A DNA stretch of 64,000 nucleotides. Origin: Amoeboaphelidium occidentale. Its lineage: Eukaryota. The stretch spans positions 1-64,000 of the forward strand of contig JALGPX010000043.1 in NCBI GenBank assembly GCA_023515795.1. Reading direction: 5' to 3'. The notes under the pieces are model-generated. The model was not told the origin of the DNA. It ran no database searches and saw nothing but the letters and a program-made list of their open reading frames with translations. Below, piece after piece: positions 8,889-43,035 of the stretch (positions within the stretch are counted from its first letter, which is position 1; each line of letters starts with the position of its first letter). Position numbers and translations under genes: made by a program.

Positions 8889-11813
8889 TTATTTCACTTC
8901 GACCTTTTCTAGATCTGAAGCCAAACTTTCTACCGATGAGCTCTCCTTAGAATTATCATTAGAAACGCCTAAAGCCATCAAGACTTGCTCCCATGTTCCA
9001 GTTCTTCCTTGGCCAAACACAATCGCTTTCATGCCTTGTTGTCTACAAATTGCACAAGTGTCATCTCTATCATCAATTAATAGTTCTAATTGATTCTGTT
9101 TCATTAACTCTGTTTTCAAAGTACGATCGCGACAGAACATCCAACGTTCCTCTGGGACAATTTGATCAACTTTGTCGGCTAGCAAACGCTCCCTAGTCGC
9201 CATTTCTGTCTTCTCACCACAATAAGATAGAAGCCACATATCAAAGTTATTTTTCTTGAGAAGACTGAGAGAATTAAACGCACCTTTGACTTCAACAGTG
9301 CTGTCTTCCATAACGTGGTCGGCGGAATCAGAGACTTTGACAGACTGATAGATGACATTGCCAATATCAACAGCAATACGCTTCGACTTCAGCTTAATTT
9401 GTTGAGGTAACCTTGTGGTCACAGCTTTGTTTCCGAACTTCATTTCGTTCCCTCCTCTGACAGTTCCATTCAAGATCACAGGTTCATCCAATTTTACAAC
9501 GTGTCCTGACTCATTTTCTAGTAATTCATTCGAATAAACAGGGTATACACCATCAGCCAAAGCCAATGTGATGTGTGCGATCTTGTTTGTCGATGGGATC
9601 GTCTTATCTGCAATCTCGACACGAGCAGTTATGCATTTATCGTCATACACAAGCGATTCCACTTCAACATCTGTCTTTCTCTCTTCTTTCACTAATTTAC
9701 TTAAAGCTATGTAGTCTTTAGGAGTAATGAACATTCCTTGGTATGACAATGTGACATGAAAAATATCGTTCAACTTCTTATTCTCTCTGAATTGTTCTGG
9801 AACGAGATCTATCCAAGGTTTAACGTCAATATTCCTGAAAAATATGGCAAAGTACCCGTAACGACTATCATTTTGTTCTCCAAGAAGATTCTCGTATTCT
9901 ACTGAATATTTCAACGCATCACTTACAATCTGAGTATCAATCTTTTTCAACAACTCAGGAGTTAAAACAGACTTGGCACAGAATTCCAGCATAGACAGTT
10001 TGTCCTTTGTCATATCAACTTTGACCAAGTTTGAAGTGAAATGAGACAGTTTCTGTTGATTCATGGCCAACTTCTTGAAGGTTCCAAGTATCATGCTAAT
10101 ATCTGCGTCAGATCTCAATGTTCTGTGAGAATCGCCGCGAGCATGAAATCTTTCTGTGCATAACTTGATAGTATTCTCCATTTCAAAATCATCCTTATCT
10201 TCAGGATGCATGAAATTTAAAATGTAGTCAAATGGACCATTCATAATATCGAAGATATCTTGCAAATTCTGGGCGTCTCTGTTGCTCTTGTCCATAATGA
10301 TGAAATTTGGTTTACTCTCGTAAGCTGCCCTAAATGCCTTCAAGTATTGCGGTCTCTTTCCAATTTCATCTTGGTTTAGCCATATTGCAGTTTTACCAAG
10401 AGAATGAAAAATGTATTGCAAGCCACGAGCAACCATTGATTTGCCAGAACATGGCAAGCCTCTCATCGCAATAACACACGTGAACTTTGAAGTCTCATAA
10501 TCTCCCCACCAATTCTTTTCCGGAAGGCTTTTAAATGTATTTTGTAATGACAACCACTCTCTTTGTATTTGCATTGCATGAAGCTCGTTCTCTCTTCTGT
10601 AAACCTGAAGCCAGCCACTGAAATTAATCAAAAAATTTAATCTGGTATCAATCCAATTTAAAGCAGCTTCATCGTCATTAAATAGATTCTTTGAAACATC
10701 ATGAACAGAATGTCTTGTCTTCATTGCAGAATCGCCTCTTATAATGCAGCCTCTTGTTGATCTTTCCAATACGTATGCAAGTGACTTTATCTTGCACATA
10801 TAAACAACGTGCGAATCTTCTTCTGCAAAAGGTTTATCAGAATAATAACCTACACAGCCTTCACTATTCTGTTTGTTTTTGATATCGTTAAGAAGTTCTT
10901 CATATTCAACAGAACCAACACGAACTTCAGGAGACATCCACGGAGTTGGAAGACCAAACCCGGAGAACGCCTTTAAAGCAGCAGGCACAGTCAAAGCTGT
11001 CAGATTTCCCATAGAACAATTGTCAGATGTTACAGCAAAAAATCTTATATGATCATCAGAACTTCCGTAATCAACAATGTGCTGACTGAAAGACAAAATT
11101 GCCTCACCTACAGCTGTGTAACTATTATCAGCAAGCCAGGCCTGGAACTCTTTGTTCTTGCACTTCTCCAGAACCAGTTTAGCGATGATCTTGGCAAAGA
11201 CGTACTTATCATCGCTCAATAGTGGCGAATTTAAATCATCAGCATTATGAAACACAATGTGAACGTTCTTGGAACCAGCAAGCCAGTAAAGTTCTCCTTT
11301 ATATCTGAATGCGCTTATTTGAGCATTCTCGCCGTTCTCCTTCTCAAGAACCATCATATACTTGGCCTTATCATAATCACCATAGCAAAGCTTTGCCCTG
11401 TCTTCTAAGTAACCAAATTTGCGCAGGCCTTGAACAGTTCCCAAGCGATTACCATCGGAATCATAAGCCAATGAAGTGCCACGCGGTAACAAGTTCCAAA
11501 TGTCTCGATTCTTGGAGTAAATAGAATCATCGTTACCACGCACGTGAACATTGAACACAACGAACTTGTTGGAATTAGCTGTGGCCTCAGTCATCCTGAC
11601 ACCAATGCGCTTTGCACAGGAATACTTTGACTCCAAATCCTTCAGTAAAACTTCTTTCCAAGTCATAAATCGAACAACGGAATATTTTGAGTTTTTGATT
11701 TTTCTGACTTGGCAATGGCGAACATTTGGGTGGCAGCTGGAGACAACGACTTCCAAACGGTTAAGGTAAATTCCGCAAATGCTTTCGTATTCGCCGATAT
11801 CATAGACTTGCAT
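8889..11813 (-). CDS. Multidomain RNA repair/tRNA-ligase-like protein: ATP-dependent RNA ligase + P-loop kinase + 2H phosphoesterase + HAD-like domain
   Basis: Ligase motif I EKENGE, IV SEGCV, V CKIKS; P-loop GLPCSGKS; 2H motifs FHVTL and AHITL; C-terminal IAVDIGNVI...LIDDR. Single 974-aa ORF; the true start may be further downstream. Confidence 0.8.
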   Translation of the reverse strand: MQVYDIGEYESICGIYLNRLEVVVSSCHPNVRHCQVRKIKNSKYSVVRFMTWKEVLLKDLESKYSCAKRIGVRMTEATANSNKFVVFNVHVRGNDDSIYSKNRDIWNLLPRGTSLAYDSDGNRLGTVQGLRKFGYLEDRAKLCYGDYDKAKYMMVLEKENGENAQISAFRYKGELYWLAGSKNVHIVFHNADDLNSPLLSDDKYVFAKIIAKLVLEKCKNKEFQAWLADNSYTAVGEAILSFSQHIVDYGSSDDHIRFFAVTSDNCSMGNLTALTVPAALKAFSGFGLPTPWMSPEVRVGSVEYEELLNDIKNKQNSEGCVGYYSDKPFAEEDSHVVYMCKIKSLAYVLERSTRGCIIRGDSAMKTRHSVHDVSKNLFNDDEAALNWIDTRLNFLINFSGWLQVYRRENELHAMQIQREWLSLQNTFKSLPEKNWWGDYETSKFTCVIAMRGLPCSGKSMVARGLQYIFHSLGKTAIWLNQDEIGKRPQYLKAFRAAYESKPNFIIMDKSNRDAQNLQDIFDIMNGPFDYILNFMHPEDKDDFEMENTIKLCTERFHARGDSHRTLRSDADISMILGTFKKLAMNQQKLSHFTSNLVKVDMTKDKLSMLEFCAKSVLTPELLKKIDTQIVSDALKYSVEYENLLGEQNDSRYGYFAIFFRNIDVKPWIDLVPEQFRENKKLNDIFHVTLSYQGMFITPKDYIALSKLVKEERKTDVEVESLVYDDKCITARVEIADKTIPSTNKIAHITLALADGVYPVYSNELLENESGHVVKLDEPVILNGTVRGGNEMKFGNKAVTTRLPQQIKLKSKRIAVDIGNVIYQSVKVSDSADHVMEDSTVEVKGAFNSLSLLKKNNFDMWLLSYCGEKTEMATRERLLADKVDQIVPEERWMFCRDRTLKTELMKQNQLELLIDDRDDTCAICRQQGMKAIVFGQGRTGTWEQVLMALGVSNDNSKESSSVESLASDLEKVEVK

Positions 11814-11826
11814 AGAAAGTGGCGAA

Positions 11827-12231
11827 ATGTCCGTGAACGAGCAAGATCCTTCTGGTTACACTCCCTTGCAAGCAGCTGCATCGTGGGATCGTGTCGAAAT
11901 GGTGGAATATTTAATCTCTAAGGGCGCTAATGTTAATTTGGTCGATAGCGAGGGCGATACTGCGCTGCATTACTGCGAGAACGCCAAAATTGCCGAAATT
12001 CTGGTAGAACACGGCGCAGACCCGCTTTTACGGAATAAGTATGGTCTTTTGCCTATTGAGAAGGCGTACTTGGATGGCCATGAGGACGTCGTAGAGTTTC
12101 TAAAGCCTTTATCGCCTGAGATCAATTATGAAGTGTTGCAGCAAGATGTTGGTAATGTTGATAATCAAATGATCGAAGACCTCTTGGCGGAATGCTACAG
12201 CTCTGATGAAGCTGAAGATTGTCTGCGATGA
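11827..12231 (+). CDS. Small ankyrin-repeat protein
   Basis: GYTPLQAAAS, GANVNLVDSEGDTALHY, GADPLLRNKYG. Confidence 0.9.
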   Translation: MSVNEQDPSGYTPLQAAASWDRVEMVEYLISKGANVNLVDSEGDTALHYCENAKIAEILVEHGADPLLRNKYGLLPIEKAYLDGHEDVVEFLKPLSPEINYEVLQQDVGNVDNQMIEDLLAECYSSDEAEDCLR

Positions 12232-38340: not shown

Positions 38341-39504
38341 TCAATGCCAAGAGTTGAAACAGTTCTTTTCATTATTTTTCAGAAGCAAAGAATGTTGGAG
38401 CTGACACAAAAGATTTCCCCACGGCTCTTCAAGATATCAGAAATAATTTCAAAGGAAGGCGTAGGAAAGTATCGAATGCAGCAGATAATGCACGCGATTT
38501 ACCGGAAACGTGCATCAAAGTACAGCGAAATTACTACGATTCCGGTGGCGTTGCGATCAAAGATCATTAATGAACTGGGAGACGATATCCTTTCACTAAC
38601 ACCAACTGTGGCTCAGAAATCGCAGCAATGTGAGAAATTACTTTTCAAGCTACACGACAATTCTGCTATTGAATCCGTGTGGATGCAGTTCCGTGATAGT
38701 GGCCATCGATCTGTCTGCATTAGCTCCCAAGCTGGATGTTCACTTGCCTGTTCTTTCTGTTCTACTGGGAAAGCTGGTTTTAAGAGACAATTAACAACGG
38801 ATGAAATAGTTGATCAAGTAATGTACTTCCAAAGATCCCGTGATGGTAGCGAATCTGCTTCAGGAGTTGACACTGTTTCGTTTATGGGCATGGGCGAGGC
38901 TTTTGGTAATCCTCGTTGTTTCGATGCTTTAAAGGTTCTTACGGACAAGGACTGTTTTGGTTTCTCTCCTTCGCGTTTGAATGTTAGCACGGTTGGAATG
39001 ATTCCTGGAATAGCAAAACTCAAGAATGAATTTCCTAAAGTTAATCTGGCTTTCTCTTTGCATTCTCCATTTAATGATGAAAGGACAAAACTTATTCCGC
39101 TGAACAGAATGTATCCTTTGGCTGAAGTAATGAAGGAGCTTGTGTCGTATTGTGAAGTTGCGCGCCAAAAGGTTTTACTTGCGTACTTGGTTTTGCCTGG
39201 ATTAAATGATACTGAAGATCATGCTAAAGCAATAAGGAACCTTCTTGATGAGATTCCATCGCATCTACGAGGATTCTTCAGGCTGAATTTAATCAGATAC
39301 AATCCAGCCGAAGGTGTCGACATTGATTATCAGCGGACCACCAGAGAGAAACTTGAGGTTTTTAAATCTTTCCTGAATGCCGAAGATATTCCTTTCACTC
39401 TGCGACAATCGTTTGGGGTCGATATTGATGCAGCCTGTGGTCAACTATACAACAATTCCATCAAGAACATTGATCAGATCAGAAAGACGGGTTTAACAGG
39501 ATGA
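38341..39504 (+). CDS. Cfr/RlmN-family radical-SAM RNA methyltransferase, Cfr-like
   Basis: CISSQAGCSLACSFC (CxxxCxxC), FMGMGEA, FSLHSP, NLIRYNP, RQSFGVDIDAACGQLY. Start could be 38341 or 38392. Confidence 0.9.
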   Translation, partial: SMPRVETVLFIIFQKQRMLELTQKISPRLFKISEIISKEGVGKYRMQQIMHAIYRKRASKYSEITTIPVALRSKIINELGDDILSLTPTVAQKSQQCEKLLFKLHDNSAIESVWMQFRDSGHRSVCISSQAGCSLACSFCSTGKAGFKRQLTTDEIVDQVMYFQRSRDGSESASGVDTVSFMGMGEAFGNPRCFDALKVLTDKDCFGFSPSRLNVSTVGMIPGIAKLKNEFPKVNLAFSLHSPFNDERTKLIPLNRMYPLAEVMKELVSYCEVARQKVLLAYLVLPGLNDTEDHAKAIRNLLDEIPSHLRGFFRLNLIRYNPAEGVDIDYQRTTREKLEVFKSFLNAEDIPFTLRQSFGVDIDAACGQLYNNSIKNIDQIRKTGLTG

Positions 39505-41610: not shown

Positions 41611-43035
41611 ATGTTCAATTACAAACGCAGCATGTTTCGATATTTCTCCAGCGTAGTTGCGCCCAGACTGAAAGAAGAGTCAGCAGAGATACCGCAGGCA
41701 GCTGCGAAGAGTGTCACCTTTTACCGAAGAGAGCTGCCTGCCCATTTGATCTCATTTACATCTACGAAAGGCAAACGATTATTTAAAGAGAGCTTAGAGT
41801 CTGGATATGCGGAGAATTACTTTCCGCTCGTGGGGAATTTCACCACGCAGTCTGAACCGGAGTTTTGCGCTTTGGGAAGTCTTGCGATGGTTCTCAATGC
41901 TTTGGAATTGGATCCTGGTAAACAATGGAAAGGCGTCTGGCGGTGGTATTCGGACGACAATTTGGAATGTTCCGCTGTGAATGCGAACAGCATCAAAGGA
42001 AAAGGCGTCACGTTCCGAGAATTTGCTTGTTTGGCAAAATGCAATGGTCTGAGTGTGCAAAGCAAGAGGTCCGACACAGTCACGAAGGAAGAATTCATGG
42101 CAGACTTACAGTCTGTTTGCCAGTCTGTAGATTCTCATATGGTGGTTTCCTTCTCTAGAAAGACTCTTGGGCAAACTGGCGATGGTCATTTCAGTCCAGT
42201 AGGAGCATTTAACAAGGAACGAAACATGGCTTTGGTTTTAGATACGGCGAGGTTTAAGTATCCCTCATACTTTGCGTCTGCAGATCTGCTTTTTGAGTCT
42301 ATGAAGCCTATTGACAAGGATACTGGTTTACCAAGAGGATATTTTGTGCTAAAGAGAGGCAGCACGAAACGATGCAATAATCACCTTTCTTTATGCCGTC
42401 TCACGCATTCTATCGGTGTATCTAATCCAAAACTTGCAAAGTTGTTCTGCAGTCAACTACCTAAACATCTGAAGGAAATCAATCCTTCCTCTTTGGTTGA
42501 TGCAATTTGTCACATCTTGCGGTTCATTCCAGCAGAATATTCTGCACTAATTAGTGTAAATGATGTTCATTCAAATGCAGTGGACCTGGCTTCTCCAACA
42601 GGCAAGCCAGGTTGTGATCTCCTAAGAGAGTTTGATAAGGAATTGTCTGTTATGCTACGAGAATTGACATGTTCTCCTTTGTTCACAAGTGTTAAAGCAG
42701 CAATGGGCGTGGTTTATGGTCAGAAAGAGCGCCCGCAAGTTTATGAAATGTTGCAAAAGTATACCGGAATAGCCCCTGAGGATTTGGACGCTTCGCTGGC
42801 TACTATTTTTATGCTTTCGTGTCCTAGAGAAGTTTTCAGAACATTAGATCCTGTACTACTACAAGAAATTGACGCGTATCGACGAAAAGATGCAATGAGC
42901 GATGTTTTGCGTCCAGAAGTAGAAAGAATCAGCGAGCAATTGAGCACTTTGATGAATGATTATTGTAAATGCTTTCAAAAGAACGCTGCTTTAGAGAAAT
43001 TGCCTTCGGTCCGATTATCATTGGGCTGTGTGTAA
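41611..43035 (+). CDS. PCS1: Phytochelatin synthase
   Basis: FYRRELP, QSEPEFC (Cys), WKGVWRWY, GQTGDGHFSP (His), LDTARFKY (Asp). Confidence 0.95.
   Translation: MFNYKRSMFRYFSSVVAPRLKEESAEIPQAAAKSVTFYRRELPAHLISFTSTKGKRLFKESLESGYAENYFPLVGNFTTQSEPEFCALGSLAMVLNALELDPGKQWKGVWRWYSDDNLECSAVNANSIKGKGVTFREFACLAKCNGLSVQSKRSDTVTKEEFMADLQSVCQSVDSHMVVSFSRKTLGQTGDGHFSPVGAFNKERNMALVLDTARFKYPSYFASADLLFESMKPIDKDTGLPRGYFVLKRGSTKRCNNHLSLCRLTHSIGVSNPKLAKLFCSQLPKHLKEINPSSLVDAICHILRFIPAEYSALISVNDVHSNAVDLASPTGKPGCDLLREFDKELSVMLRELTCSPLFTSVKAAMGVVYGQKERPQVYEMLQKYTGIAPEDLDASLATIFMLSCPREVFRTLDPVLLQEIDAYRRKDAMSDVLRPEVERISEQLSTLMNDYCKCFQKNAALEKLPSVRLSLGCV

What the first reader, a model, noticed from the sequence alone, without database searches (positions are those of the whole stretch)
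8889..11813. All-in-one RNA repair enzyme: Trl1-like ligase-kinase-CPDase plus an extra HAD-like domain
Established: fungal Trl1 has ligase, kinase and 2H cyclic phosphodiesterase domains, while T4 Pnkp uses a HAD phosphatase for 3' healing. Seen: this ORF has all three Trl1-type modules plus a C-terminal HAD-like domain (IAVDIGNV...IDDR; second Asp replaced by Gly), and no intron over 2.9 kb. Inference: it may combine both end-healing strategies, or serve in repair of ribotoxin-cut RNA, and may not be orthologous to Trl1.
Basis: partly seen in the sequence, partly recalled or inferred. Interest (0 to 1): 0.7.

Follow-up and report, generated by a model that had tools for sequence, protein, structure and literature searches.

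The report
Four-domain Trl1-type RNA repair ligase
A microbial eukaryote, likely an aphelid (an algal parasite related to fungi), has an intron-free gene whose protein joins the three modules of a fungal-type tRNA ligase to an unnamed phosphatase-fold domain otherwise seen mostly as a stand-alone protein in virus-like DNA, which would likely let one enzyme both rejoin broken RNA and strip phosphates that the fungal enzyme cannot remove.

Summary
The four modules are real and the gene is intron-free. It most likely starts at Met50 (11666; 925 aa), not at 11813. The ligase scores as Pfam DUF7920 but folds like fungal Trl1, including Trl1's special C-domain. It keeps the His-Arg-Arg triad that makes Trl1 prefer 2'-phosphate ends. 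The ligase-kinase-CPD core belongs to a large unnamed family in protists and giant viruses (104 of the 150 best hits). The HAD fusion was seen only in aphelid-type proteins and one fragment. The HAD fold is confirmed. Its DxG motif is the family norm (37 of 37), and an active E. coli phosphatase shares it, so it is not decay. Relatives carry RtcA or Tpt1 in the same accessory role. Best reading: a Trl1-type heal-and-seal enzyme whose HAD likely removes dead-end 3'-phosphates. Boldest reading: the HAD replaces Tpt1 as an NAD-independent junction 2'-phosphatase. No activity was tested, and the host genome was not available. This scan earlier noted four-module repair enzymes in other domain orders on other DNA. 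Verdict: new variant of a known kind.

The parts
8889..11666 (-). Most likely true coding sequence, 925 aa, no intron: ligase-kinase-CPD-HAD
   Evidence: Identical to record P0006; homologues align from this Met; cDNA-like contigs without joints
11667..11813 (-). Upstream 49 in-frame codons of the reported ORF, probably not translated
   Evidence: Overlaps the divergent ankyrin-like gene and its intron; absent from P0002 and P0006
10782..11666 (-). Ligase adenylyltransferase domain (aa 1-295; DUF7920): K109 (motif I KENG), S132-K133, E188, H196, E269-G270, K292, K294
   Evidence: Foldseek and VIA to Trl1 LIG
10515..10781 (-). Trl1-type helical ligase C-domain (aa 296-384) with R302 and R305, equivalent to Chaetomium R334 and R337
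   Evidence: Profile alignment to 9r3w; VIA aligns aa 4-384 to Trl1 LIG but only aa 4-331 to T4 Rnl1
9879..10493 (-). P-loop polynucleotide kinase (aa 392-596): G408-K409-S410, D433, lid R506-x3-R510, H514
   Evidence: (Z 18.8, rmsd 2.7 to 6tzx)
9444..9866 (-). 2H cyclic phosphodiesterase (aa 601-741): H637-x-T639, H698-x-T700
   Evidence: (Z 15.8, rmsd 2.0 to CNPase)
8967..9386 (-). Nearly capless HAD-fold domain (aa 761-900): D767-x-G769, S814-x-C816, R846-x-R848, K851, D865-D866
   Evidence: stand-alone homologues
11715..12231 (+). Divergent ankyrin-repeat-like gene with a 40-nt GT-AG intron (about 11766-11805); neighbour, not part of the enzyme
   Evidence: Translation, splice joint; the ankyrin label is from recalled motifs, not from a profile search

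Best explanation
The gene encodes a ligase, a kinase, a 2H phosphodiesterase and a HAD-fold domain in one chain, and it likely works as a Trl1-type heal-and-seal RNA ligase whose HAD is predicted to remove dead-end 3'-phosphates from broken RNA. Inferred steps: the CPD opens a 2',3'-cyclic phosphate to 3'-OH/2'-phosphate; the kinase phosphorylates the 5'-OH; the ligase adenylylates K109 and seals the ends, holding the 2'-phosphate with H196/R302/R305. Ends that already carry a 3'-phosphate cannot be sealed by this ligase type. The HAD, a predicted Mg-dependent aspartyl-phosphate phosphatase (D767) with no real cap and two conserved arginines, would strip them so that they can be joined, more slowly. 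Shown here: architecture, folds, conserved catalytic residues, and cDNA-like coverage in close relatives. Inferred: every activity, the HAD's substrate, and whether the enzyme serves tRNA splicing, general repair or both. My odds: about 0.9 for the Trl1-type core, about 0.4 for the whole statement including the HAD's substrate.
For: Fold: AF2 pLDDT 90.3. The best six Foldseek hits are fungal Trl1; VIA Z 24.8 including the C-domain, against Z 18.9 without it for T4 Rnl1. Triad: by my count of residues in the printed alignment to 9r3w (chain offset +3), H196/R302/R305 map onto His227/Arg334/Arg337, the enforcers of the 2'-phosphate requirement (PMC11404444 passages). The triad is intact in 130 of 144 ligase-bearing hits. 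Trl1 LIG does not seal 2'-OH/3'-P ends and seals 2'-OH/3'-OH ends weakly (PMC12440814 passages). HAD: fold; D767, G769, S814, C816, K851, D865 and D866 in 37 of 37, R846 in 36 of 37, R848 in 35 of 37; as conserved among the fused proteins (38-45%) as the kinase and CPD (29-41%). The top structural match, tied within 1 Z unit with other HADs, is deoxyribonucleotidase-like. Relatives fuse RtcA, which also deals with 3'-phosphates, at the C-terminus (3 of 37 proteins scanned). A phage homologue lies beside a tRNA cluster and a Ro protein.
Against: No activity was measured. The HAD's product (2'-OH/3'-OH) is a poor substrate for a ligase with an intact triad, and a HAD that did not tell 2' from 3' would undo the CPD's work. 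Most family members lack any HAD (4 of 150 hits have it fused). None of 11 stand-alone HAD loci had a ligase, kinase or CPD homologue by my profiles (most loci are short), and the 29 neighbour ORFs scanned by Pfam showed no RNA-repair gene. The phage homologue also lies next to ribonucleotide reductase genes, which fits nucleotide metabolism as well. The usual general-acid Asp is absent, and its substitute is unknown.
Confidence: 0.4

Rival explanations
1. [quoted passage not shown]
For: The ligase type leaves a junction 2'-phosphate. In this family Tpt1 is fused in 2 of 37 proteins scanned (P0124 N-terminal, P0125 C-terminal) and is the adjacent gene in 1 of 6 giant-virus loci (L007). This reading has no conflict with the triad. 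The domain is nearly capless with conserved arginines.
Against: I found no HAD described with this activity in the listings. An internal 2'-phosphate is a crowded substrate, and the general-acid Asp is missing. Whether the host has Tpt1 could not be checked. Stand-alone HADs were not seen beside ligases.
Confidence: 0.2
2. The HAD is a small-molecule phosphatase: a nucleotidase for 2'/3'/5'-NMPs, or for ADP-ribose-1''-phosphate made from the Tpt1 by-product by a 2H enzyme. It would clean up by-products of repair.
For: Best VIA row and best profile hit are the deoxyribonucleotidase-like 3bwv (Z 14.2; E 0.17). An Atlas cluster with 41% NT5C scores 0.92. Two homologues carry an automatic 5'(3')-deoxyribonucleotidase label. 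The phage copy sits next to ribonucleotide reductase.
Against: These matches are faint or tied with other HADs. The lack of a cap favours large substrates (recalled rule for HADs). A diffusible substrate needs no fusion.
Confidence: 0.2
3. The HAD is a non-catalytic or unrelated passenger, fused once and kept for binding or by chance; the protein is functionally a three-domain Trl1.
For: A single origin of the fusion is likely (4 fused proteins form one clade, support 0.98). The canonical second Asp is missing. The core occurs without a HAD in most relatives.
Against: All Mg- and phosphate-binding motif residues are kept in all five fused HADs examined, across about 40% identity. DxG is the family state and occurs in active YihX.
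Confidence: 0.15
4. The ligase is T4-like (needs 2'-OH/3'-OH) and the CPD plus HAD heal the 3' end completely before sealing.
For: Atlas features rank viral Rnl1-type clusters first (0.95, against 0.94 for DUF7920). CPD followed by HAD is the scheme described for jumbo phages (PMC7824862 section 3.4.9).
Against: The Trl1 C-domain and the His-Arg-Arg triad are intact, and the same ligase occurs without a HAD in most relatives.
Confidence: 0.05

Closest known systems
Fungal tRNA ligase Trl1 (Rnl6 clade; Chaetomium 9r3w/6n0v, Candida 6u05)
   Same: Order ligase-kinase-CPD; ligase fold with the helical C-domain; His-Arg-Arg 2'-phosphate triad; kinase lid RxxxR..H; two HxT motifs.
   Different: Only 14-18% identity in structural alignments; the ligase scores as DUF7920, not RNA_lig_T4_1; much closer relatives are in protists and giant viruses; extra C-terminal HAD; GTP-specific G-loop not confirmed.
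Trypanosoma brucei Trl1
   Same: Three-domain heal-and-seal enzyme outside fungi, all domains essential (bioRxiv 2026.08.16.745097 section 11).
   Different: Its signature motifs (PMC4931112 passage) were found in none of my proteins. The trypanosomatid DUF7920 protein I found (P0095, Angomonas) is a separate, degenerate paralogue. No HAD is described for TbTrl1 in what I read.
T4 Pnkp + Rnl1 and jumbo-phage RNA repair kits (PNK-HAD, 'Swiss-army-knife' HAD)
   Same: A HAD phosphatase combined with a kinase and an ATP-dependent ligase for end healing (PMC7824862 section 3.4.9).
   Different: Here all modules are one chain; the ligase is Trl1-type; the HAD is DxG, matches no Pfam family above cut-off, and HAD_SAK_2 is hit by only 1 of 51 members at E 0.03.
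E. coli YihX (HAD4) and 5'(3')-deoxyribonucleotidase-like HADs
   Same: YihX has the same DxGNV motif I and is an active phosphatase (PMC8938923 passage); the fold is similar to 3bwv.
   Different: These are stand-alone small-molecule phosphatases, YihX with a cap (recalled); no link to RNA repair.

Membership tests
Trl1-type (Rnl6) tRNA ligase | Ligase-kinase-CPD in one chain | tested here: met
Trl1-type (Rnl6) tRNA ligase | Nucleotidyltransferase motifs I, Ia, III, IV, V intact | tested here: met
   K109, K133, E188, E269, K292, K294
Trl1-type (Rnl6) tRNA ligase | Unique helical C-domain of the ligase | tested here: met
   VIA aligns aa 4-384 to Trl1 42-398, Z 24.8, rmsd 4.2, 326 aligned
Trl1-type (Rnl6) tRNA ligase | His-Arg-Arg 2'-phosphate triad | tested here: met
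   H196/R302/R305
Trl1-type (Rnl6) tRNA ligase | Kinase G-loop giving GTP specificity | tested here: inconclusive
   P-loop, general base and lid are kept; the G-loop residues of PMC5728400 could not be mapped
Trl1-type (Rnl6) tRNA ligase | Measured 2'-phosphate requirement and role in tRNA splicing | not testable with these tools
   Needs biochemistry or complementation
Orthologue of fungal Trl1 | Groups with fungal Trl1 and is the genome's only tRNA ligase | tested here: inconclusive
   Profile scores favour non-fungal relatives; my tree held no fungal Trl1; no genome held
DUF7920 (PF25536) ligase family | Pfam score above the curated cut-off | tested here: met
   126.9 bits against a cut-off of 27
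HAD superfamily | Rossmannoid HAD fold | tested here: met
   VIA Z 14.2, rmsd 3.4, 128 aligned; local pLDDT about 90
HAD superfamily | Motifs I (Asp), II (Ser/Thr), III (Lys), IV (DD) | tested here: met
   37 of 37 each
Canonical DxD HAD phosphatases (T4 Pnkp type) | General acid Asp two residues after the nucleophile | tested here: not met
   Gly in 37 of 37; also Gly in YihX
Swiss-army-knife HAD (PF10307/PF18143) | Match to the HAD_SAK profiles | tested here: not met
   No match for the window domain; 1 of 51 relatives at E 0.03
T4 Rnl1-type ligase | Rnl1 C-domain, no 2'-phosphate pocket | tested here: not met
   The alignment to T4 Rnl1 ends at aa 331-333; the triad is present

The most novel reading that the evidence does not exclude
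The HAD is an NAD+-independent phosphatase for the 2'-phosphate at a sealed RNA junction. That would make this protein a self-sufficient, single-chain tRNA-splicing and repair enzyme that needs no Tpt1, in a lineage next to fungi, built from a Trl1-type core and a phosphatase family both shared with giant viruses.
Probability: 0.2. Interest if true: 0.8.

Novelty: new variant of a known kind. Interest (0 to 1): 0.55.

Why it matters
It assigns DUF7920 as a Trl1/Rnl6-type ligase domain and shows that Trl1's 2'-phosphate pocket, usually treated as a fungal hallmark, is kept in a large family in protists and giant viruses. That family swaps accessory modules (Tpt1, RtcA, this HAD). It also defines an unnamed DxG HAD family whose substrate can now be tested in a few assays. 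If the HAD removes the junction 2'-phosphate, it would be an alternative to Tpt1. If aphelids use this enzyme in place of fungal Trl1, it bears on how the fungal tRNA-splicing pathway arose.

Tried and rejected
Whole-genome check for Trl1, RtcB and Tpt1: no genome held. First AF2 model from 4 sequences: pLDDT 48.6, usable only for the HAD. Single-sequence PDB search: nothing; HAD profile A2: nothing. Pattern scans found nothing: A2, A1 and A6 in viral contigs; A7 and the Leptospira HAD protein in prokaryote genomes; these scans are narrow and do not show absence. The phage HAD found no further phage or plasmid relatives. The idea that the trypanosomatid hit is TbTrl1 (my note) was rejected: it lacks TbTrl1's motifs and has degenerate ligase and CPD sites. 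Recent gene transfer by composition: no signal, GC 0.393 and GC3 0.387, like the neighbours. No tRNA gene in the window. No RNA holder was listed by record; runs X3, X4, X7, X8 and X9 are judged cDNA-like only from their splice joints. The wide VIA search never ran. Burroughs and Aravind 2016 is not held; from recall it describes multi-domain RNA-repair proteins with HAD domains, so it or its supplement may already list this architecture. Literature searches listed no paper on DUF7920 or on an aphelid tRNA ligase among the rows shown. The YihX paper passage and PMC9128629 did not discuss the DxG motif. The scan's notes held no look-alike sequence.

Full report
Observation. The reported ORF is open on the minus strand, 974 codons. 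The window is eukaryotic, gene-dense and about 40% GC. The closest named relatives are Amoeboaphelidium protococcarum hypothetical proteins at 39-40% identity over the whole length, so an aphelid-like host is my inference. No genome was held. The real start is most likely Met50 at 11666. A database protein identical to the window's begins there. The extra codons overlap a divergent ankyrin-like gene. In runs whose contigs are spliced, and so look like cDNA, 11764-11803 is removed, and contigs of two studies end at 11661-11662; one contig runs on into the neighbour. No joint lies inside the ORF, and one contig covers 9047-11122, from the ligase into the HAD. Contigs cannot prove a single transcript.

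The core. Pfam gives DUF7920 for the N-terminal third, a weak Trl1-kinase match and a clear Trl1-CPD match. A profile search of 1.84 billion representatives gave 1249 hits at E <= 0.001 and 143 at E <= 1e-30. Of the 150 listed, 104 are ligase-kinase-CPD, 24 ligase-kinase, 9 ligase only, 4 ligase-CPD, 2 kinase-CPD, 3 four-domain (the query's own group), 1 CPD-HAD fragment and 3 HAD only. Few carry names. Of 20 representatives looked up, one is a dinoflagellate protein and one an Angomonas protein. Six loci lie in IMG/VR viral contigs, three of them named GVMAG and two others with eukaryote-type RNA polymerase genes, so I read them as giant viruses. I aligned 94 sequences (the window protein, 3 fused relatives and 90 roughly full-length hits, leaving out fragments and insertion-rich ones). 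That profile hits Chaetomium Trl1 LIG-KIN at E 3e-32 and Candida KIN-CPD at E 1e-30, and it gave a model at pLDDT 90.3. Foldseek ranks fungal Trl1 first. VIA aligns residues 4-384 to Trl1's ligase including its C-domain (Z 24.8), but only 4-331 to T4 Rnl1 (Z 18.9). All catalytic residues of the three domains are intact.

The 2'-phosphate pocket. In Chaetomium Trl1, His227, Arg334 and Arg337 enforce the 2'-phosphate requirement (PMC11404444, passages; PMC12440814, passages). Counting along the printed alignment, these match H196, R302 and R305 here. They are intact in 130 of 144 ligase-bearing hits; the 14 exceptions include a degenerate trypanosomatid-type group. The enzyme is therefore expected to seal 2'-phosphate ends and leave a junction 2'-phosphate. 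Consistent with this, Tpt1 is fused in 2 and RtcA in 3 of 37 relatives scanned (mostly chosen for length), and Tpt1 is the adjacent gene in 1 of 6 viral loci.

The HAD. It has no Pfam family but a clear HAD fold, with only a short hairpin and loop where a cap would be. Stand-alone homologues reach 47-48% identity; 57 were found with a profile. Eleven metagenome loci show them in gene-dense contigs, several with giant-virus-like neighbours such as a histone H4-like gene, KilA-N, patatin and SET, and without RNA-repair neighbours. A phage homologue annotated 'phosphatase' lies between ribonucleotide reductase genes and a tRNA cluster with a Ro protein. In 37 sequences chosen to span the family, the nucleophile Asp, the Gly at +2, Ser-x-Cys, Lys and Asp-Asp are invariant. 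E. coli YihX, an active phosphatase (PMC8938923, passage), starts with DLGNV, so DxG does not mean dead. A flap Asp (30 of 37), or an acidic residue plus His in the five fused forms, is a candidate general acid (speculation). The four full-length fused proteins form one clade (support 0.98 in a 67-sequence FastTree without fungal Trl1). The five fused HADs group with one stand-alone protein (0.97). This points to one old fusion kept under selection.

Mechanism. The Trl1-type core is well supported. For the HAD I commit to removal of terminal 3'-phosphates, which Trl1-type ligase cannot seal and which relatives handle with RtcA. Against this, the product is a weak substrate for such a ligase. 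The main rivals are a Tpt1-replacing junction phosphatase (0.2), a by-product nucleotidase (0.2) and a passenger (0.15).

Comparison and novelty. The protein works like Trl1 and meets the sequence and structure features of the Rnl6 clade that I could test. Orthology to fungal Trl1 is unresolved: fungal Trl1 scores far below the protist and viral relatives. HAD-plus-ligase repair kits are known from phages (PMC7824862, section 3.4.9 and passages), but with other HAD families. My searches listed no paper on DUF7920 or on this fusion. The key review (Burroughs and Aravind 2016) was not available and is cited from recall only. Other papers seen: PMC4931112 (passages), bioRxiv 2026.08.16.745097 (abstract, section 11), PMC5728400, PMC5824351, PMC4251788 and PMC9128629 (passages), PMC10946435 (listing; a word search found no mention of aphelids). 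No supplements were read. Unchecked notes of this scan report four-module enzymes in other domain orders, so multi-module fusions recur and the general idea is not unique.

Verdict. A real, apparently expressed gene; a new variant of a known kind; interest 0.55, and 0.8 if the HAD proves to replace Tpt1.

Noticed in passing
P0095 (Angomonas deanei) and P0104, P0111, P0121, P0128, P0138, P0157, P0080: A trypanosomatid-type DUF7920 group, distinct from TbTrl1. In the three checked residue by residue (P0095, P0111, P0128), ligase motifs III-V and the CPD histidines are degenerate while the kinase residues are intact: a likely kinase-only or pseudo-ligase paralogue.
   Followed up: partly
P0070, P0086, P0119, P0125, P0124, P0084, P0047: Family members with other accessory modules: RtcA (one from a dinoflagellate), Tpt1, SPRY, TrmO, RRM.
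   Followed up: partly
L007:7719-10563: Giant-virus contig with the three-domain ligase gene convergently overlapping a Tpt1 gene; its closest relative in my tree (P0124) has Tpt1 fused.
   Followed up: partly
L004:204-2531; L003:7989-9176; P0143: Permuted or reduced forms: ligase-CPD-kinase order, ligase only, and kinase-CPD-ligase order.
   Followed up: no
P0033: Family member with a C-terminal extension of about 240 aa that matches no Pfam family and not this HAD.
   Followed up: no
L011:5932-6939: Stand-alone HAD directly upstream of a histone H4-like gene and a KilA-N gene in a 105-kb giant-virus-like contig; in L013, L014 and L016 it is followed by a lysine-rich ORF of unknown family.
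   Followed up: no
window 11667-11714: Only 48 bases separate the two divergent start codons, so promoters and 5' UTRs are shared or overlap.
   Followed up: partly
window 8889-8891: A metagenomic allele (P0007, P0008) reads through this stop and adds 18 residues.
   Followed up: no
window 38344-39504 and 41611-43035: An RlmN-like radical SAM gene and a phytochelatin synthase gene in this compact eukaryotic genome.
   Followed up: no
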